From: a virus
Direction: 5' to 3' (one strand)
Length of the DNA: 64,000 bases
IMG/VR virus record: IMGVR_UViG_3300028840_004475
Span: 83,748 to 147,747 of that record
The translations under genes were made by a program, and so were the position numbers. Shown in pieces: positions 27,703 through 36,334 of the stretch. Each line of letters opens with the position of its first letter. Positions within the stretch are counted from its first letter, which is position 1. Under the pieces are notes generated by a model. The model was not told the DNA's origin, searched no databases, and saw nothing but the letters and a program-made list of their open reading frames with translations.

Positions 27703-28821
27703 CTAGCGAGACTTAATCTCATTTTTCTCGAGGTCATAACGGGTCGAACACCTTGGACATTTATGGCCACCGCCCCAATGGTCTCGGACCAGCAGCTCGA
27801 TGCAGTAGACACAACGCGACTTGCTCCAGTGGCACTGAGGACAGTCATGCGTGCCGGCTTCGATCCTCTCTACCAGTTTCTTCGGTAGTCTTGCCTTGCA
27901 TTGAGGGCATTCTCGTGCTGGCTTCCACATTTCTTCGTAGGCATTCTGCTCTGCACCGTAAGATAGTGCAAATTCCTTGGATGCTTTGTCAGCAAATACG
28001 TTGAATGCCTTGACAAGAGCCGTGAAGATCGGTTGCAGAGTCTTGTTCATCTGATCGGCCAAGTTGTTCAGAGACTTTGCCAAAGCATTGAGTGCACTCT
28101 GCGCTTCCTGGACGCCCTTGGAGAACTTTTCACTGTCGGCCGCGATGACGACCTCCAACGGCTCTTTGTTCTTTTTGTAGAGTTCGATCCTGACCTTCTT
28201 GGCGTCCTCCGCTGTGGGTACCATTGTTTTGTGTACCCTGCAGGCTGGGCAATCATCGTCACCAGTGCACTCGACGGTGAAGGAATTGGGGCCATTATTT
28301 GATGTGCTCTCATACGTCACGGGAATGAACCCGTGATCCTCTGCCCAGATGGACTCCAACGTGACAGCGATGTTGGCCGGCGTCAGAAGCGGTGTCATCG
28401 TCAATCCATCAAGCTTGTGCTCTACTTCCGTCAGCAAGCTGGCATCAGCCTTCCTCTTCACTTCGTCAATGAAGTTGCCCGCAGCGAGAAATGTCTGGTA
28501 CGCAAGATCAGCTGTGCTGATGCTGCCATTGGTCTCTTCGAGAAGTGGGTGAATTCCACGACCACAAGTATCAGATAGACGGCGCATCAACGTCTCAGCA
28601 CTGTAGTCGACACACTTGAACAGGAAGTCGGTGAAGGCTTTTTCGATGCACTGGGTCTCACCGTCGAGATTCATGTGGACGTCCCACCAAAAGTCTGGAC
28701 GCGGTTTCAGCTCGATGATGAAGATCATGCTGTCTTTGAACCGATGGTTGATCCGTGTCTTCAACGCGATGCGGTCGCCCATGGATGCCTCCTTACTATT
28801 TGATACAGCATGTGCGCCCAA
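27703..28821 (-). CDS. Protein with C-terminal double zinc ribbon (paralogue 1)
   Basis: CPQC..CPQC..CVYC..CPRC; the true start may be slightly downstream. Confidence 0.65.
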   Translation of the reverse strand: MGAHAVSNSKEASMGDRIALKTRINHRFKDSMIFIIELKPRPDFWWDVHMNLDGETQCIEKAFTDFLFKCVDYSAETLMRRLSDTCGRGIHPLLEETNGSISTADLAYQTFLAAGNFIDEVKRKADASLLTEVEHKLDGLTMTPLLTPANIAVTLESIWAEDHGFIPVTYESTSNNGPNSFTVECTGDDDCPACRVHKTMVPTAEDAKKVRIELYKKNKEPLEVVIAADSEKFSKGVQEAQSALNALAKSLNNLADQMNKTLQPIFTALVKAFNVFADKASKEFALSYGAEQNAYEEMWKPARECPQCKARLPKKLVERIEAGTHDCPQCHWSKSRCVYCIELLVRDHWGGGHKCPRCSTRYDLEKNEIKSR

Positions 28822-28842
28822 ATCAGACTAGAAAATGGCTAG
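28800..28842 (-). promoter_or_regulatory. Phage promoter-like motif (CTAG-N7-CTAG-N22-TATCAA)
   Basis: Repeated motif, at a divergence point. Confidence 0.65.
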
Positions 28843-28872
28843 AATGTGGTAGACACGATCAGGAGGTGTTCC

Positions 28873-29295
28873 ATGAGCGACAGCAAACCATCGAAGACCA
28901 GCACGCATGTCCTTGGAAATCCACCGAACTTCGGTGAAGTGAGCGTCTCAGCCTATGCGATCGGGGACGAGAATCTCTCCACCCCCGTCTACATGGCGCC
29001 GTCTCTACCTTATAGGACGACACCCCCGAACACCGATTTCCCCATCCCAGAGGGTCTTGAGTTCCGAGGGCCCAGAGGAGCCCTCACCAGGGAAGGGTTC
29101 GAGGCCATGGTCGACCTGATCACCGAAGAAAAAGTGAAGGTGATGCACAGGGACGCAGAGATCACCCAGTTGAAGAAGCTGATCCAGGAGATCTACAGCC
29201 TGGTCTGCCCTGGATGGGCCGGCGACTTCGGGAACCCGGATCAGCTCAAGGGTGCTATCTCACGCCGTCTGGCGGACCTCACCGAAAAAAAGTGA
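28873..29295 (+). CDS. Hypothetical protein
   Basis: AGGAGG SD before ATG at 28873. Confidence 0.55.
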   Translation: MSDSKPSKTSTHVLGNPPNFGEVSVSAYAIGDENLSTPVYMAPSLPYRTTPPNTDFPIPEGLEFRGPRGALTREGFEAMVDLITEEKVKVMHRDAEITQLKKLIQEIYSLVCPGWAGDFGNPDQLKGAISRRLADLTEKK

Positions 29296-29315
29296 TCCGC
29301 CCCTGATTTTTCTGA

Positions 29316-29379
29316 TTGACAAGTACCCCACAAGTACCCTACTTCTGTACCCTACAAGTACGTTATAAAACATTCAGGT
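29316..29379 (+). promoter_or_regulatory. Ro60 promoter region with two GTAC-N7-GTAC repeats
   Basis: TTGACA at 29316; ACAAGTAC x3; GTAC at 29323, 29334, 29347, 29358. Confidence 0.6.
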
Positions 29380-29392
29380 ACGGAGCAGGATC

Positions 29393-31126
29393 ATGCAGAC
29401 CTTCACCGAGGCAACGCGCTGGCGGAAGCCGACCAAGCGCAAGGGCAACGGCCGCAACTACGCCCAGCAGCGCCAGGTCATCCCAGGCAAGAGCCGGCTC
29501 ATGACTTCGACCTCGAGCGGCACCAAGGCCTTCAAGGTGGACGACTGGGGTCGCCTCGCCCGCTTCCTGATCCTGGGAGCAGACAAGCCGACCTTCTACG
29601 CGACGAAGCGCCAGCTGGTGCGGGACAACGCGAGGGTGGTCGAGCGCTGCATCAAGGAAGACGGTATCCGTACCGTGGACCTGATCGCGGAAGTGTCGAT
29701 TCAGGGCTCGGCGCCGAACAACGACCCGGCCCTGTTTGCGCTGGCAATGTGCGCGACCCTGGGTGGCCTCCACACCCGCCAGTACGCCCTCGGGCGCCTG
29801 TCGGACGTGGCGCGGATCGGAACGCACCTGTTCCACTTCGTGGCCTACTGCGAGGGTCTCGGTCACGGCTGGGGCCGGAACATGCGACGTGCGATCCGTG
29901 GGTGGTACAACGAGAAGGCGCCGGACAAGCTGGCGTATCAGATCCTGAAGTACAAGCAGCGTGACGGCTGGTCGCACAAGGATCTGCTCGCTCTGGCTCA
30001 CCCGCGCACTTCGAACAAGGAACGTGATGCCATCTACCGGTACATCGTGGCCGGCATCGATGGTCTGGGCAAGCGTACTGTCCTGAAGCACAACGGCCGC
30101 CGGAAGGTCCGCAAGACCTACCCGGACGTGTCACGTCACCTGCCGGCGCAGATCTTCGCCGCGCACGACGTGCACAAGGTCAGCAAGCGGAAGGCCAAGC
30201 AGCTCATCGAAGAGCACCGCATGACCCATGAGATGGTGCCGAACGAGCTGAAGAACGACCCAGAGGTCTGGGAGATCATGCTCGAGACGATGCCCATCGG
30301 AGCGATGGTGCGGAACCTCGGCAAGATGACCAGCATCGGCCTCCTGGACCGGATGTCCAGGGCCTCGAAGCTGGTGATCGACCGGCTGGGCGACATGGAG
30401 CGGATCCGTCGGGCGCGTCTGCACCCGATCGAGTTCCTCAAGGCCAACCGTGTCTACGGTGCCGGCCGCGGGGACAAGGGATCGCTGTGCTGGGATCCGG
30501 TGCGCGGGATCGTCCGAGCACTGGACGACGGGTTCTACCTGGCCTTCGGCGCGATCGAGCCGAGCGGCGTGAACACTGGTCTGTTCATCGACGTCTCTGG
30601 TTCGATGGCATGGGACACCTCACGCGTGAAGTCGATGGCGAACATGACCGCACGTGAGCTGTCAGGTGCCATGGCCCTGGTGACGGCGAACGTGGAGCCG
30701 TACTGGGAGATCATCGCCTTCTCCGGCGGCTACGACTCGCTCGAGGAGATCCCGATCGAGCCCGGCATGAAGCTGGACACGGTCGTGAACAGGATGGAGC
30801 GTATGCGAGCCGGCAGCACGAACCTGTCGCTACCGTTCGAGTACGCACGTGGACGCGGTGTCCCGATCGAGACGTTTATCGTCTACACAGACAACGAGAC
30901 GAATCACTTCGGCTCGCTGCATCCGTCGGAGGCACTGCGCAGGTACCGGAAAGAGACCGGCATCGACGCGAAGCTGATCGTGGTCGGCATGGTGGCGAAC
31001 GACATCTCGATCGCTGACCCGACCGATCACGGCATGTTGGATGTAGTTGGGTTCGACACGAACGCTCCGTCAGTGATGGCGGACTTCGCGAAGGGCGCCT
31101 ACGAGATCGACGTCGAGCAGGGCTGA
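29393..31126 (+). CDS. rsr: Ro60/Rsr RNA-binding protein (TROVE + vWA)
   Basis: DDW.RL.RFLILG, ARIGTHLFHF, KYKQRDGWSHKDLL.LAHP, MP.GAM.RNLGKMT, HP, DVSGSM MIDAS motif, YTDNET, IADP.D.GMLDVVGFD. Confidence 0.96.
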   Translation: MQTFTEATRWRKPTKRKGNGRNYAQQRQVIPGKSRLMTSTSSGTKAFKVDDWGRLARFLILGADKPTFYATKRQLVRDNARVVERCIKEDGIRTVDLIAEVSIQGSAPNNDPALFALAMCATLGGLHTRQYALGRLSDVARIGTHLFHFVAYCEGLGHGWGRNMRRAIRGWYNEKAPDKLAYQILKYKQRDGWSHKDLLALAHPRTSNKERDAIYRYIVAGIDGLGKRTVLKHNGRRKVRKTYPDVSRHLPAQIFAAHDVHKVSKRKAKQLIEEHRMTHEMVPNELKNDPEVWEIMLETMPIGAMVRNLGKMTSIGLLDRMSRASKLVIDRLGDMERIRRARLHPIEFLKANRVYGAGRGDKGSLCWDPVRGIVRALDDGFYLAFGAIEPSGVNTGLFIDVSGSMAWDTSRVKSMANMTARELSGAMALVTANVEPYWEIIAFSGGYDSLEEIPIEPGMKLDTVVNRMERMRAGSTNLSLPFEYARGRGVPIETFIVYTDNETNHFGSLHPSEALRRYRKETGIDAKLIVVGMVANDISIADPTDHGMLDVVGFDTNAPSVMADFAKGAYEIDVEQG

Positions 31127-31135
31127 CACGAGTTT

Positions 31136-31196
31136 GAGGGCCGGACGGCTTGGGTTATCTTGCAACGATACCCCCCAGGCCAAACACTTTGCCCTC
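31136..31196 (+). ncRNA. Y RNA 1 (short; apical loop TTGCAAC)
   Basis: GAGGGC-C-GGA...TTT-GCCCTC bulged-C Ro-binding stem, 9 nt after the Ro60 stop. Confidence 0.8.
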
Positions 31197-31205
31197 TTCA
31201 AGTTT

Positions 31206-31324
31206 GGCTGACGTAGCGATGTGGAAGGACACATGAGAGACGGCAGTAGCCCAAGGCTAGGTGTGTGCCGCCCCGTTTAGAGGAATCCTTGGGGAGCTGG
31301 TATCAAGGCCAGTCTGCGTCAGTC
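31206..31324 (+). ncRNA. Structured RNA, partly tRNA-like, without the Ro stem
   Basis: GGCTGACGTAG pairs with CTGCGTCAGTC; internal hairpins; same AGTTT leader as the Y RNA units. Confidence 0.55.
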
Positions 31325-31341
31325 GTTCTATGGAAGGATTT

Positions 31342-31452
31342 GTGGGCCGAATGGATTGCAGGGTTATCGATGGTTCGAATCCACCTGGCGGGTCTAAACC
31401 ACCCGCTATCGCCTAGCTGGTTAAGGCACCCCTGTACCAACAACTTGCCCAC
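31342..31452 (+). ncRNA. Y RNA 2, YrlA-type (T arm - closed acceptor - D arm)
   Basis: GTGGGCCGA...TTGCCCAC; GGTTCGAATCC, TGGCGGG/CCCGCTA, GCCTAGCTGGTTAAGGC. Confidence 0.88.
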
Positions 31453-31469
31453 TTTGAATTATGGGAGTT

Positions 31470-31597
31470 GCGGGCCGTAGACTGAACGTTATCTAAGCGC
31501 GCAATTTTGCGCTTATAGCTCAGTTGGTAGAGCGCCGGGGGTAGCCTCGGAGGTCGAGGGTTCGAATCCCTAACGACGTTCTTTCAGCTTTGTCCGC
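31470..31597 (+). ncRNA. Y RNA 3 (closed acceptor - D - anticodon-arm mimic - T)
   Basis: GCGGGCCGTA...TTTGTCCGC; TAAGCGC/GCGCTTA, TAGCTCAGTTGGTAGAGC, GGGTTCGAATCCC. Confidence 0.82.
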
Positions 31598-31619
31598 GCC
31601 CTACCTATTAGAGGAGTTT

Positions 31620-31682
31620 GAGGGCCGGAAGTCTTGGGTTATCACTTCGGATGATGCTTCCCAGGACACTAACTTTGCCCTC
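31620..31682 (+). ncRNA. Y RNA 4 (short; apical TATCA-CTTCGGA-TGATG)
   Basis: GAGGGCCGGA...TTTGCCCTC. Confidence 0.8.
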
Positions 31683-31701
31683 GTTTCTATACACTGAGTT
31701 T

Positions 31702-31768
31702 GTGGGCCGGAGGCAACGGGTTACCTTTCATTTGGAGAAAACACACCCATCGCCAACAACTTGCCCAC
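31702..31768 (+). ncRNA. Y RNA 5 (short; apical TTTC-ATTTGGA-GAAA)
   Basis: GTGGGCCGGA...CTTGCCCAC. Confidence 0.8.
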
Positions 31769-31787
31769 TTCGTTTTGAGAGGAGTTT

Positions 31788-31918
31788 GCGGGCCGTACGA
31801 AATAGGTTACCAATGCAAACTGTAGGTCGCGGGTTCGAGTCCCGTCATCGGCACCATGCCGATGTAGATCAGCTGGTAGATCAACAGTGGTTACACGCCT
31901 ACTTCACTTTTTGCCCGC
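31788..31918 (+). ncRNA. Y RNA 6 (tRNA permuted at the anticodon loop; acceptor closed by ACCAT)
   Basis: GCGGGCCGTA...TTTGCCCGC; ACTGT-AGGTC-T arm-CATCGGC ACCAT GCCGATG-D arm-ACAGT. Confidence 0.87.
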
Positions 31919-31940
31919 GTTTCAAAGGACACTATGGTTT

Positions 31941-32072
31941 GAGGGCCGGACGCACGTTGGGTTATCCACTCATAATGGAGAGGTCGCAGGTTCGAATCCT
32001 GTCGTGGCTTTAGCGAGTCACGTAGCTCAGTTGGTCAGAGCGCTAAACCCCCAATGTCAACTATTTGCCCTC
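31941..32072 (+). ncRNA. Y RNA 7 (anticodon arm CAT - T - closed acceptor - D)
   Basis: GAGGGCCGGA...TTTGCCCTC; TCCA-CTCATAA-TGGA, GCAGGTTCGAATCCTGT, CGTGGCT/AGTCACG, D arm. Confidence 0.87.
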
Positions 32073-32089
32073 GTTTTGAAGTAGAAGAG

Positions 32090-32380
32090 ATGAACACGAG
32101 AGAGACACGCATGTTGACAGAAGCAATCAGAGCAAACACGCGCGCCCTCCTCGAGAACACGAAGCTCTTGAAACGCTTCACGTCGAAGCAGGACCGCAAG
32201 AGCGATCTCGATGAGAGACGCAACCGACTACTGGCGAACATCCCGTACCTGAAGTCAGAGCTGAAGCAGTTCCGGCGTCAGGAGCTGGTGATGCTCGCTG
32301 CAGCCCTGGGGGTCAGGAACACATCAGTACCGAACACACGCCTCGTGGAAGTGATCTTCAGAGAACAGAAGCGAGCGTGA
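32090..32380 (+). CDS. Hypothetical protein with possible Rho_N/HeH-like C-terminus
   Basis: ELK...RQELVMLAAALGV.N.S......LVE.I. Confidence 0.5.
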   Translation: MNTRETRMLTEAIRANTRALLENTKLLKRFTSKQDRKSDLDERRNRLLANIPYLKSELKQFRRQELVMLAAALGVRNTSVPNTRLVEVIFREQKRA

Positions 32381-32577
32381 AGAAGCTGTACATCTGGTTC
32401 TGCGACAAGTGCAACTCGTTCGTACCAGCGACGTGTTGTCTGGCAACGAGCAAGAAGGCAGCATGGGACGGCGGTCAAGAACACCTGGTGAAGACGCACG
32501 ACTTGACTCACCACGCTACCGACATGGAGTTGTTCAAGGGCCGCGTCGTCATCTTGGAAGAGAAGACGAAAAAATAG
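32377..32577 (+). CDS. Small zinc-finger protein
   Basis: CDKC...H...H. Confidence 0.5.
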   Translation: MKKLYIWFCDKCNSFVPATCCLATSKKAAWDGGQEHLVKTHDLTHHATDMELFKGRVVILEEKTKK

Positions 32578-32578
32578 C

Positions 32579-32608
32579 TTGACAGATCGATAACCGATGC
32601 ATCACGAT
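32579..32608 (+). promoter_or_regulatory. sigma70-like promoter, tRNA operon 1
   Basis: TTGACA-N18-CACGAT. Confidence 0.65.
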
Positions 32609-32630
32609 GAAAACTTCGTCGGAGGATGCT

Positions 32631-32744
32631 ATGCACCGCGCAATTCAGATCACCACCATTCCCATCAAGCGCGACGGACGATTGTCCTTCCTCTGTTCCC
32701 TTTCGTCCCTATTTCTCTATTCCAATTCCGGCTGGCGACTGTAG
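32631..32744 (+). CDS. Leader peptide 1: MHRAIQITTIPIKRDGRLSFLCSLSSLFLYSNSGWRL
   Basis: GGAGG SD; 18 of the last 20 residues are L/S/F/C/Y/N/W, the amino acids of operon 1; stop is 12 nt before the first tRNA. Confidence 0.8.
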   Translation: MHRAIQITTIPIKRDGRLSFLCSLSSLFLYSNSGWRL

Positions 32745-32756
32745 ACGCATCTTTGC

Positions 32757-32840
32757 GGATCGGTAGCTGAGCTGGTTTAGCAGCGGGCTGTTAACCCGTG
32801 CCCTCGGGCTACGTGGGTTCGAGTCCCACCCGATCCGCCA
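32757..32840 (+). tRNA. tRNA-Asn(GTT), long variable arm
   Basis: Cloverleaf, loop CTGTTAA, CCA end. Confidence 0.85.
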
Positions 32841-32843
32841 TGT

Positions 32844-32912
32844 GGGCGCCAGGCTATGGCAGCCAAGCGGGCTCCAACCCCGCAGGACAGGGTTCGATTC
32901 CTTGGGCGCTCG
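32844..32912 (+). tRNA. tRNA-Trp(CCA)
   Basis: Loop CTCCAAC; CCA end not encoded. Confidence 0.8.
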
Positions 32913-32927
32913 TAGAAAGAAAAATGT

Positions 32928-33003
32928 GGACTCGTCGCTGAGTTGGTTCAGGCGCCTGGTTGAAGCCCAGGAGACGTTGGTTCGATTCCAACCGAGTCCA
33001 CCA
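32928..33003 (+). tRNA. tRNA-Phe(GAA)
   Basis: Loop TTGAAGC, CCA end. Confidence 0.9.
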
Positions 33004-33006
33004 AAC

Positions 33007-33082
33007 GCGGGCATAGCCCAACTGGTAGGAGGCGACGGTTTTAAGGTCCGTTCAGTGGTGGGTTCGAATCCCCCTGCCCGTA
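33007..33082 (+). tRNA. tRNA-Leu(TAA), short variable region
   Basis: Loop TTTAAGG. Confidence 0.8.
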
Positions 33083-33151
33083 TTCAAGGAAACGAACGAA
33101 AACTGAAATAAGGAGGTCGCCTCGAGCCCATGTTTCAAAAGATCAGCACAT

Positions 33152-33234
33152 GTCAGAGTGGCGGAATTGGTAGACGCGCAGGCCCGAGGAGCCTGTACTT
33201 CGGTGTGAGGGTTCGACTCCCTCCTCTGACACCA
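33152..33234 (+). tRNA. tRNA-Leu(GAG)
   Basis: Loop CCGAGGA, CCA end. Confidence 0.9.
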
Positions 33235-35725: not shown

Positions 35726-36334
35726 ATGGCCAAGAAAGAAGAACGCAAACAAGCTAGAACTATGCGCAGGGGTGGAAAGTCGATAGTACAAATTGCGAAA
35801 TTACTTGGTGTATCAAAATCAAGTGTATATTTATGGACAAAGGATTTACCTCAACCAAGAAAATTCACGAAAGAATATCGACGTAAACGAAAAGAAAAAG
35901 CTCTAGCACGTTTGAAGAAAGAAAGAGAGAAACGAGAGAAAGAAAAAGCGAATCGCAAACTATTGAGTTGCGGAGATAGATGGATCATACGAGTGCCACC
36001 TGGGTACAAAGGCAAAACATATATCGGAGGAAGATACGTTCTTCAAAGTAGATATTTGATGGAACAAAAACTTGGAAGATACCTAAAATATAACGAGTGT
36101 GTTCACCATAAAAACGGGGATAAACTGGACGATAGAATTGAGAATTTGGAATTACATACTAGGAAATTACATGGAGAGATACATGCAATTAGAAAAAGGA
36201 CTAAACTCAAATGTCCAATATGTGATGTAGAATTTGAACGCAAAAACAGTTATGTGAAAAGTCACATAAAACAAGGATACAAAGGTTTTTATTGTAGCAA
36301 AAGGTGTGCGGCCAAGAAACAAAAGGGAGTATAG
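35726..36334 (+). mobile_element. Free-standing HNH homing endonuclease
   Basis: N-terminal HTH, VHHKNGDKLDDRIENL, C-terminal Zn finger; markedly AT-rich; own TTGACA-N17-TAATTT promoter at 35678. Confidence 0.88.

What the first reader, a model, noticed from the sequence alone, without database searches (positions are those of the whole stretch)
29393..32072. Phage Ro60 followed by seven Y RNAs carrying interchangeable tRNA-mimic cargo
Seen: seven units share G(A/T/C)GGGC-C-G.A ... GTTA[cargo] ... TTG(C/T)CC(T/A/G)C with compensatory changes at the stem base (GAG/CTC, GTG/CAC, GCG/CGC), and each is preceded by a GTT(T)/ATTT leader. Established: the bulged-C helix resembles the Ro60 site of Y RNAs (GGUCCGA/UUGACC); bacterial YrlA RNAs carry a T-acceptor-D tRNA-like domain; some phages encode Ro60 with Y RNAs. 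Unusual here: the copy number, and four different permutation orders in one array (T-AS-D; AS-D-AC-T; split at the anticodon loop; AC-T-AS-D). No RtcB is visible in this window. Inference: a panel of Ro-protected decoys or adaptors for host tRNA nucleases, tRNA-sensing defences or PNPase, placed directly upstream of the tRNA operons.
Basis: partly seen in the sequence, partly recalled or inferred. Interest (0 to 1): 0.9.

Follow-up and report, generated by a model that had tools for sequence, protein, structure and literature searches.

The report
Phage Ro60 with seven Y RNAs
An uncultured 148-kb phage encodes the RNA-binding ring protein Ro60 followed by seven small RNA genes that share one Ro60-binding stem but carry different tRNA-shaped pieces. 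This is a large and varied example of a known protein-RNA partnership whose role in phages is still unclear.

Summary
A Ro60 gene (29393-31126; TROVE plus vWA_Ro60) is followed 10 nt later by seven units (31136-32072). All share a GNGGGC-C-G…GGUUAYC…UUGCCCNC double helix with a bulged C.

A covariance model built from the short units finds 92 more copies in 55 of 79 independent Ro60 loci from viral contigs. All 92 lie on the Ro60 strand, and covariation is strong.

Three units are short hairpins and four carry tRNA-like modules. U2 and U6 are YrlA-type (T-acceptor-D). U7 adds an anticodon-like arm, and when re-permuted ARAGORN calls it tRNA-Met(CAU). U3 is acceptor-D-anticodon-T, a rare order. 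That makes three topologies, not four.

The scaffolds fall into classes ordered ABCABCA, which points to duplication of a three-unit block followed by cargo change.

Seven copies is near the top of the range but not unique: locus L205 has about eight. Phage Ro60 with Y RNAs, and YrlA as a permuted tRNA, are already published. The mixed array and the U3 architecture appear to be new.

The decoy function is untested. Earlier notes from this scan describe similar arrays beside Ro60-like genes in other phages.

Verdict: a new variant of a known kind, of moderate interest.

The parts
29319..29361 (+). Three GTACCC(C/T)AC direct repeats, 11-13 nt apart, just upstream of the Ro60 start. Possibly a regulator or promoter region.
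   Evidence: No sigma-70 consensus promoter was found in 28700-33200.
29393..31126 (+). Ro60 gene (577 aa), with a TROVE ring and a vWA domain that includes a DVSGS MIDAS-like motif.
   Evidence: Pfam TROVE 2.5e-41 and vWA_Ro60 2.4e-50. PDB matches: human Ro60 1e-99, Xenopus Ro60 5e-97, Deinococcus Rsr 1e-88.
31136..31196 (+). U1: short Y RNA, scaffold class A (GAG/CUC), with an apical hairpin carrying the 7-nt loop UUGCAAC.
   Evidence: R1 69.8 bits; fold.
31205..31326 (+). Element X: a 122-nt multi-hairpin RNA-like structure closed by an 11-bp stem. It follows a GUUU leader but lacks the Ro-binding motif.
   Evidence: MFE -52.6 kcal/mol, z = -2.4. No Rfam hit and no homologue in the fetched loci.
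31342..31452 (+). U2: class B (GUG/CAC), YrlA-type cargo. T arm 31369-31385, closed 7-bp acceptor hairpin 31386-31408, D arm 31411-31427. The Y stem serves as the anticodon stem and UUAUC as the variable loop.
   Evidence: R1 37.5 bits; fold; coordinates.
31470..31597 (+). U3: class C (GCG/CGC), cargo in the order acceptor hairpin 31494-31515, D arm 31518-31533, anticodon-like arm with a 6-nt loop 31535-31550, AGGUC, T arm 31556-31572. This is a tRNA permuted at position 65|66.
   Evidence: Rfam tRNA 27.6 bits against a cut-off of 29. ARAGORN calls the re-permuted sequence a tRNA.
31620..31682 (+). U4: short Y RNA, class A, with a UUCG-capped apical hairpin.
   Evidence: R1 65.1 bits. Rfam sbRNA RF01656 23.9 bits.
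31702..31768 (+). U5: short Y RNA, class B, with the 7-nt apical loop AUUUGGA. Its last 16 nt are identical to those of U2.
   Evidence: R1 58.1 bits. Rfam RF01656 31.1 bits. Comparison with U2.
31788..31918 (+). U6: class C, YrlA-type cargo with its own 5-bp anticodon stem (31819-31823 paired with 31884-31888). T arm 31829-31845, acceptor hairpin 31846-31864 whose loop reads ACCA-U, D arm 31867-31882.
   Evidence: Rfam YrlA 42.5 bits, E = 1.3e-7; coordinates.
31941..32072 (+). U7: class A, complete cloverleaf permuted at 26|27. Anticodon-like arm 31964-31980 (loop CUCAUAA), AGGUC, T arm 31986-32002, acceptor hairpin 32003-32022, D arm 32025-32041.
   Evidence: Rfam YrlA 49.1 bits, E = 1.6e-9. 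R1 36.8 bits. ARAGORN calls the re-permuted sequence tRNA-Met(CAT).

Best explanation
This is a phage Ro60-Y RNA operon. Ro60 and seven Y RNAs (plus one unrelated structured RNA) are probably transcribed together and cut apart at the short U-rich spacers. Each Y RNA presents the same bulged-C helix, which would dock on the outer surface of the Ro60 ring. The distal end differs: a short stem-loop (U1, U4, U5) or a tRNA-shaped module (U2, U3, U6, U7).

The result would be a set of Ro60 particles with different adaptor heads. The heads probably gate the ring or tether it to host tRNA-binding or RNA-decay factors such as PNPase or RNase P during infection.

The array grew by duplication of a three-unit block (scaffold order ABCABCA), and the cargo changed afterwards.

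What is shown: the Ro60 identity, the shared covarying helix, its strict linkage to Ro60 genes across phages, and the tRNA-like anatomy.

What is inferred: expression, processing, Ro60 binding and the partner proteins.
For: The units share a two-helix scaffold. Across 44 units from about 20 viral contigs, 94.4% of cells are paired against 69.8% in shuffles. Eleven of 14 pairs show double changes, and no shuffle out of 500 matches this.

In an unbiased sample of 79 Ro60 loci, the model hits 55 loci. All 92 hits are on the Ro60 strand, and nearly all lie within about 1 kb of the gene. There are no other hits in the 147.7-kb genome.

Rfam gives YrlA at E = 1.6e-9 (U7) and 1.3e-7 (U6), and a nematode Y-RNA-homologue family for U5 and U4.

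U2, U3, U6 and U7 all keep U8, A14, G15:C48, G18G19, U54U55C56 and G53:C61 (read directly from the sequence).

U1 starts 10 nt after the Ro60 stop codon, and no terminator was found inside the array.

Published precedents: M. smegmatis YrlA and YrlB are processed from one precursor, and a 7-bp acceptor stem makes YrlA an RNase P substrate (PMC4201824). Thermus phage phiLo Ro60 binds two Y-like RNAs and forms a complex with host PNPase (PMC12135203).

Scaffold classes: within-class similarity is 23.2 against 13.5 between classes, the best of 105 possible partitions.
Against: There are no expression data. No promoter or terminator consensus was found.

No unit reaches an Rfam gathering score, and Rfam Y_RNA (RF00019) gives no hit at E <= 10.

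Model R1 misses U3 and U6.

The only other copy of this phage is identical, so the cargo structures have no within-lineage covariation. Support for them comes from distant phages only.

The partner of the tRNA-like module is unknown even in bacteria (PMC4201824).

The covariation alignment was fitted to the model, which biases it towards the structure.
Confidence: 0.6

Rival explanations
1. Counter-defence decoys. The Ro60-bound RNAs display tRNA parts (anticodon stem-loops, elbows, whole cloverleaves). These would soak up or mislead host tRNA-cleaving toxins or tRNA-sensing immune proteins while the phage's own 37 tRNAs keep translation going.
For: U7 and U3 carry anticodon-like arms. Short-unit apical loops are 7 nt in 14 of 33 cases, with U at loop position 2 in 13 of those 14. 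The array sits just upstream of a near-complete tRNA set. A Ro60-like protein of phage Bas63, also upstream of tRNA genes, counters the ppl defence (PMC11482910).
Against: No defence system is known to be blocked by a Y RNA, and the Bas63 result concerns the protein. In U7-type hairpins from other phages, loop position 33 is U in only 4 of 7. U3's loop has 6 nt. No host or toxin is known for this phage.
Confidence: 0.22
2. Permuted or split tRNA precursors. RNase P opens the closed acceptor loops, producing two-piece RNAs with a real CCA end. These would be aminoacylated or otherwise act in translation, with the Y stem holding the halves together.
For: All four modules have 7-bp acceptor stems, which is the RNase P determinant in M. 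smegmatis YrlA (PMC4201824). U6 encodes ACCA directly after the acceptor 3' strand, and the same N-CCA appears in at least four units from other phages (plus one seen by eye).
Against: The anticodon loop is absent from U2 and U6. The genome has no RtcB ligase and no CCA-adding enzyme. N-CCA is present in only about a quarter of the units examined. The junction could simply be a relic of a tRNA-tRNA boundary.
Confidence: 0.08
3. The units are not independent RNAs. They would be decayed tRNA genes and repeated stems acting only as processing or stability signals for the Ro60 mRNA and the downstream operon.
For: The units lie between a gene and a tRNA region. No promoters or terminators were detected.
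Against: There is strong covariation, an invariant bulged-C motif, and strand-specific linkage to Ro60 in 55 of 79 loci from unrelated phages. The tRNA tertiary-contact nucleotides are intact in all four modules.
Confidence: 0.05

Closest known systems
Mycobacterium smegmatis Rsr with YrlA and YrlB (Chen et al. 2014, PMC4201824)
   Same: Ro60 has adjacent Y RNAs processed from one precursor. One Y RNA carries a T-acceptor-D tRNA-like module with a 7-bp acceptor stem, and the other is a shorter RNA. The GNCGAA-type 5' motif is present.
   Different: Here there are seven RNAs rather than two, and they lie downstream of the gene. Both strands of the Ro-binding helix are conserved. Two further module orders are present (U3, U7).
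Bxz1-type mycobacteriophage Ro with YrlA (22 phages in Chen et al. 2014)
   Same: Phage-encoded Ro60 with Y RNAs near tRNA genes. Phage Cali shows two short R1 hits and one YrlA-core hit in the 485-nt gap upstream of Ro.
   Different: The proteins are only about 39% identical. Cali has about three units, upstream of the gene, and none of the acceptor-D-anticodon-T type was seen.
Deinococcus radiodurans Yrn1
   Same: Both strands of the Ro-binding helix are retained. The D-then-T orientation and a 6-nt 'anticodon' loop (PMC4201824) match U3.
   Different: Yrn1 lacks a clear D arm, a variable loop and a separate acceptor hairpin. U3 has all of these.
Thermus phage phiLo Ro60 with Yrl1 and Yrl2 (PMC12135203)
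   Same: A phage Ro60 with more than one Y-like RNA beside it. Binding and a PNPase complex were shown experimentally.
   Different: The proteins are barely related (E = 5e-8, N-terminal third only). No tRNA-like modules were reported for Yrl1 or Yrl2.
Metazoan Y RNAs and nematode stem-bulge RNAs (Rfam RF00019, RF01656)
   Same: Bulged-C lower helix and a GGGUUAUC-type upper-stem motif. U5 and U4 score 31.1 and 23.9 bits on RF01656.
   Different: The scores are below the gathering score of 38, and RF00019 gives no hit. Metazoan Y RNAs have no tRNA-like module.
Circularly permuted tRNA genes of red algae and an archaeon (discussed in 10.1101/312249)
   Same: Closed acceptor loop, with the RNA's own 5' and 3' ends pairing elsewhere. 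U6 has the tRNA 3'-ACCA joined to the 5' end.
   Different: Those precursors mature into working tRNAs through a splicing endonuclease and a ligase. No such enzymes were found in this phage.

Membership tests
Ro60 / TROVE protein | TROVE HEAT-repeat ring plus C-terminal vWA domain, scoring above the Pfam cut-offs | tested here: met
   PF05731 142.8 bits (cut-off 23) and PF25045 171.1 bits (cut-off 27.7). Full-length matches to human, Xenopus and Deinococcus Ro60 structures.
Y RNA (Ro60-associated ncRNA) | Encoded beside Ro60 on the same strand | tested here: met
   The array starts 10 nt after the stop codon. All 92 family hits in 55 other Ro60 loci are on the Ro60 strand.
Y RNA (Ro60-associated ncRNA) | Conserved terminal helix with a bulged C and a GGUCCGA / GNCGAA-type motif | tested here: met
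   GGGC-C-G(A/G/U)A pairs with UU(U)GCCC in all seven units. Covariation at the two outer pairs and in helix 2.
Y RNA (Ro60-associated ncRNA) | Physically bound by Ro60 and expressed as a discrete RNA | not testable with these tools
   Requires RIP or EMSA and small-RNA sequencing.
Y RNA, Rfam RF00019 / sbRNA RF01656 | Score at or above the family gathering score | tested here: not met
   No RF00019 hit at E <= 10. RF01656 gives 31.1 and 23.9 bits against a gathering score of 38.
YrlA (Rfam RF02553) | Score at or above the gathering score of 69 bits | tested here: not met
   U7 49.1 bits and U6 42.5 bits (E = 1.6e-9 and 1.3e-7). U2 and U3 are not reported.
YrlA (Rfam RF02553) | T arm, closed acceptor stem-loop and D arm in that order, with the Ro-binding stem in place of the anticodon stem | tested here: met
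   Met for U2, U6 and U7. Not met for U3, whose order is acceptor-D-anticodon-T.
tRNA | Recognised as a tRNA in native 5'-3' order | tested here: not met
   ARAGORN finds no tRNA in 31136-32072. The Rfam tRNA model gives 27.6 bits for U3 against a cut-off of 29. ARAGORN calls U7 and U3 tRNAs only after circular re-permutation.

The most novel reading that the evidence does not exclude
Phages use Ro60 as a chassis for a cassette-built, interchangeable panel of tRNA parts: anticodon stem-loops, elbows, and whole permuted cloverleaves, some with CCA ends. This panel acts as Ro60-protected decoys or adaptors against tRNA-targeting host immunity and is deployed together with the phage's own full tRNA set. 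The short 'minimal' Y RNAs would then be anticodon-stem-loop mimics, which would give Y RNAs in general a tRNA-derived logic.
Probability: 0.15. Interest if true: 0.85.

Novelty: new variant of a known kind. Interest (0 to 1): 0.55.

Why it matters
The role of Y RNAs' second domain remains an open question in the Ro60 field, and the partner of the bacterial tRNA-like module is still unknown. This locus places three module architectures and three minimal forms on near-identical Ro60-binding scaffolds in one operon. That makes it a natural swap experiment for asking what each module recruits.

The same helix marks at least 55 of 79 sampled phage Ro60 loci, out of 505 Ro60-encoding contigs in IMG/VR. 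Multi-Y-RNA particles therefore look like a common and largely unannotated phage feature, often close to tRNA arrays.

One phage Ro60-like protein has already been linked to counter-defence (PMC11482910), so these RNAs are candidates for the missing RNA half of that activity.

Tried and rejected
- **Megablast of the locus against 50,697 phage records:** no match.
- **Single-protein locus search in IMG/VR:** one 40%-identical hit only.
- **Closest Ro60 relatives (56-59% identity):** each carries only two units, one short and one tRNA-like, so they give no direct orthologues of the seven.
- **Second copy of the phage from another sequencing run:** identical over 9.7 kb, so it offers no covariation.
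- **Promoter and terminator scan:** nothing useful.
- **Cargo against the phage's own 39 tRNAs:** only generic tRNA-core similarity, so the modules are not recent copies.
- **Two apparent D-before-T modules in the unbiased sample (L188, L203):** these proved to be an ordinary tRNA and a spurious match.
- **Element X:** no homologue in the fetched loci and no Rfam hit.
- **Pfam on ten neighbouring ORFs:** only an HNH/HTH protein within the tRNA region.
- **RtcB and CCA-adding enzyme:** absent from the whole genome.
- **Terminase:** at most 32% identical to any cultured phage, so no host can be assigned.
- **Reading U7's extra hairpin as a strict anticodon mimic:** I considered this across the family. 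Loop positions 37-38 are AA in 7 of 7 in-register examples, but position 33 is U in only 4 of 7. I therefore call it anticodon-like and no more.
Full report
**What is there**

The window is the last 64 kb of a 147.7-kb viral contig with direct terminal repeats. An ORF at 29393-31126 encodes a 577-aa protein. It matches Pfam TROVE (2.5e-41) and vWA_Ro60 (2.4e-50). It aligns end to end with the solved Ro60 structures of human (1e-99), Xenopus (5e-97) and Deinococcus Rsr (1e-88), but only weakly with Thermus phage phiLo Ro60 (5e-8).

Ten nucleotides after the stop codon the first of seven units begins. Their coordinates are U1 31136-31196, U2 31342-31452, U3 31470-31597, U4 31620-31682, U5 31702-31768, U6 31788-31918 and U7 31941-32072.

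Each unit opens with GNGGGC, a bulged C, then G(A/G/U)A. A second helix follows that ends in GGUUAYC (GAACGUUAUC in U3). Each unit closes with UU(U)G(C/U)CCNC. The diagnostic 5' pattern occurs six times against 0.02 expected.

**Is it a Ro60-linked RNA family?**

I built a covariance model (R1) from twelve short units of this and other viral contigs. In the window it finds U1, U4 and U5 at 58-70 bits and U2 and U7 at about 37 bits. It finds nothing else in the window or the whole genome apart from one chance-level match at 16 bits (E = 0.14). It misses U3 and U6, which are the most divergent.

Across 44 units from about 20 viral contigs, the two helices are paired in 94.4% of cells against 69.8% in column shuffles. 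Eleven of 14 pairs show double changes, and no shuffle out of 500 reaches the observed values. Sliding the partner by one to three columns drops pairing to 32-49%. That alignment was fitted to the model, so the percentages lean towards the structure.

The stronger test is an unbiased one. IMG/VR holds 505 contigs encoding a Ro60 relative. In the 79 new loci among the 80 fetched, R1 gives 92 hits in 55 loci. All 92 lie on the Ro60 strand, and almost all are within about 1 kb up- or downstream of the gene.

Rfam gives sub-threshold but significant matches:
- YrlA for U7: 49.1 bits, E = 1.6e-9.
- YrlA for U6: 42.5 bits, E = 1.3e-7.
- The nematode Y-RNA-homologue family RF01656 for U5 and U4.
- tRNA for U3: 27.6 bits against a cut-off of 29.

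The metazoan Y_RNA model does not hit.

**Anatomy of the cargo**

- **U1, U4 and U5** are minimal. The two helices are capped by a short hairpin.
- **U2** is a classical YrlA arrangement. The Y helix acts as the anticodon stem and UUAUC as a 5-nt variable loop. A T arm follows, then a closed 7-bp acceptor hairpin, then a D arm.
- **U6** has the same topology but its own 5-bp anticodon stem and an AGGUC variable loop. Its acceptor loop reads ACCA-U. This is a tRNA 3' end joined through one base to a matching 5' end.
- **U7** carries an extra arm before AGGUC: a 5-position stem and the 7-nt loop CUCAUAA. When the two halves are re-joined in tRNA order, ARAGORN calls tRNA-Met(CAT).
- **U3** has the order acceptor hairpin, D arm, anticodon-like arm with a 6-nt loop, AGGUC, T arm. 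ARAGORN also calls the re-permuted sequence a tRNA.

All four modules keep U8, A14, G15:C48, G18G19, U54U55C56 and G53:C61, as read directly from the sequence. None is a recent copy of any of the phage's 39 tRNAs.

There are therefore three topologies.

**Array history**

The scaffolds fall into three classes:
- Class A: GAG/CUC with CCGGA (U1, U4, U7).
- Class B: GUG/CAC (U2, U5), with an identical 16-nt 3' strand.
- Class C: GCG/CGC with CCGUA (U3, U6).

Within-class scaffold similarity is 23.2 against 13.5 between classes. This is the best of the 105 possible 3-2-2 partitions. Along the DNA the order is A-B-C-A-B-C-A, which only 2 of 210 orderings would give.

An alternative is that alternating stems are selected to stop neighbouring units from mispairing.

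**How unusual is it?**

Multi-unit arrays beside phage Ro60 are common.
- By R1 alone, most loci have 1-2 units, three have 4, and L205 has 7. By eye L205 has about eight, in mixed forms.
- L058 has 5 units and L121 has 5.
- The cultured mycobacteriophage Cali has three candidates in the gap upstream of Ro.
- The closest Ro60 relatives (56-59% identity) have one short plus one tRNA-like unit.

Among non-tRNA modules with both T and D arms near Ro60 in the unbiased sample, 32 are T-then-D. The window's U3 is the only true D-then-T case. Two more U3-type units turned up in the motif-selected sample, at L031:698-830 and in L119. L031 also mixes orientations.

Only the window and one other locus have four tRNA-like modules. 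U7-type units (hairpin, 5-nt loop, T, acceptor, D) recur in L105, L127, L093, L109, L044 and L064.

**What is already known**

- Chen et al. 2014 (PMC4201824) reported YrlA RNAs next to Ro60 in 254 bacteria and 22 phages. They also reported a frequent extra stem-loop 5' of the T arm, which they called V; a different D/T orientation in Deinococcus Yrn1, with a 6-nt 'anticodon' loop; and RNase P cleavage plus CCA addition for the 7-bp acceptor stem of M. smegmatis YrlA.
- Wang et al. (10.1101/312249) describe YrlA as a circularly permuted tRNA. They relay a model in which it arose from a dimeric tRNA transcript. U6's ACCA-U-G junction fits that model well.
- Thermus phage phiLo Ro60 binds two Y-like RNAs and host PNPase (PMC12135203).
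- A Ro60-like protein of phage Bas63, upstream of tRNA genes, counters the ppl defence (PMC11482910).

Five full-text searches found no description of phage Y RNA arrays with mixed module permutations. The 2018 and 2020 reviews by Sim, Wolin and colleagues were not available to me.

**Mechanism**

The most likely reading is as follows. Ro60 and the RNAs are made from one transcript, as in M. smegmatis. The RNAs are released at the U-rich spacers. Each docks on Ro60 through the common helix, and the variable head decides what the particle meets. Candidates are a gate over the ring's cavity, a tether to an exoribonuclease such as PNPase, or a tRNA-binding enzyme.

The 7-bp acceptor stems make all four modules plausible RNase P substrates.

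The decoy idea is attractive because of the anticodon-like arms, the neighbouring full tRNA set and the Bas63 result. Nothing here tests it.

**Caveats**

There are no expression data. The host is unknown; the terminase is at most 32% identical to any cultured phage. No signal for transcription start or stop was found. The cargo structures rest on single sequences plus distant analogues.

**Earlier scan notes**

Earlier notes from this scan describe handle-sharing RNA arrays of four, six and eight units beside Ro60-like genes in other phages. I did not check those genomes. My own survey of IMG/VR points the same way.

Noticed in passing
window 31205-31326: A 122-nt multi-hairpin element closed by an 11-bp stem sits between U1 and U2. 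It follows the same GUUU leader but lacks the Ro-binding motif. It has no Rfam hit and no homologue in the fetched loci. It may be an eighth, unrelated RNA of the operon.
   Followed up: partly
window 31846-31864; L091, L062, L064: N-CCA lies directly after the acceptor 3' strand inside the closed acceptor loop in U6 and in at least four tRNA-like units of other phages (about 5 of 23 examined, against 0.4 expected). This is either a relic of tRNA-tRNA junctions or a ready-made CCA end exposed by RNase P.
   Followed up: partly
window 31136-31768 and alignment A2: The apical hairpins of short Y units most often have 7-nt loops (14 of 33), with U at loop position 2 in 13 of those 14. This is a U-turn or anticodon-loop-like pattern. 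The loops were taken from single-sequence folds.
   Followed up: partly
window 29319-29361: Three GTACCC(C/T)AC direct repeats spaced 11-13 nt apart lie immediately upstream of the Ro60 start codon. They may be an operator or a phage-specific promoter.
   Followed up: partly
window 29000-31000: The Ro60 gene is 61-63% G+C, while the flanking kilobases are 52-55%. This hints that the gene was acquired from a higher-GC source.
   Followed up: no
L062, L064 (jumbo-phage contigs of 465 and 277 kb); L136 (Streptomyces phage Beuffert): Y-like units are interleaved with ordinary tRNA genes, sometimes only a few bases from a tRNA. They are probably co-processed with tRNAs and go unannotated in deposited genomes.
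   Followed up: partly
L205 4903-4935: In the other large array, a terminator-like hairpin with a U run lies between the last Y unit and the Ro60 start. There the RNAs may form their own transcription unit upstream of the gene.
   Followed up: no
window 35726-36334: An HNH endonuclease with an N-terminal HTH domain lies between tRNA blocks. This looks like a homing-type insertion in the tRNA region.
   Followed up: no
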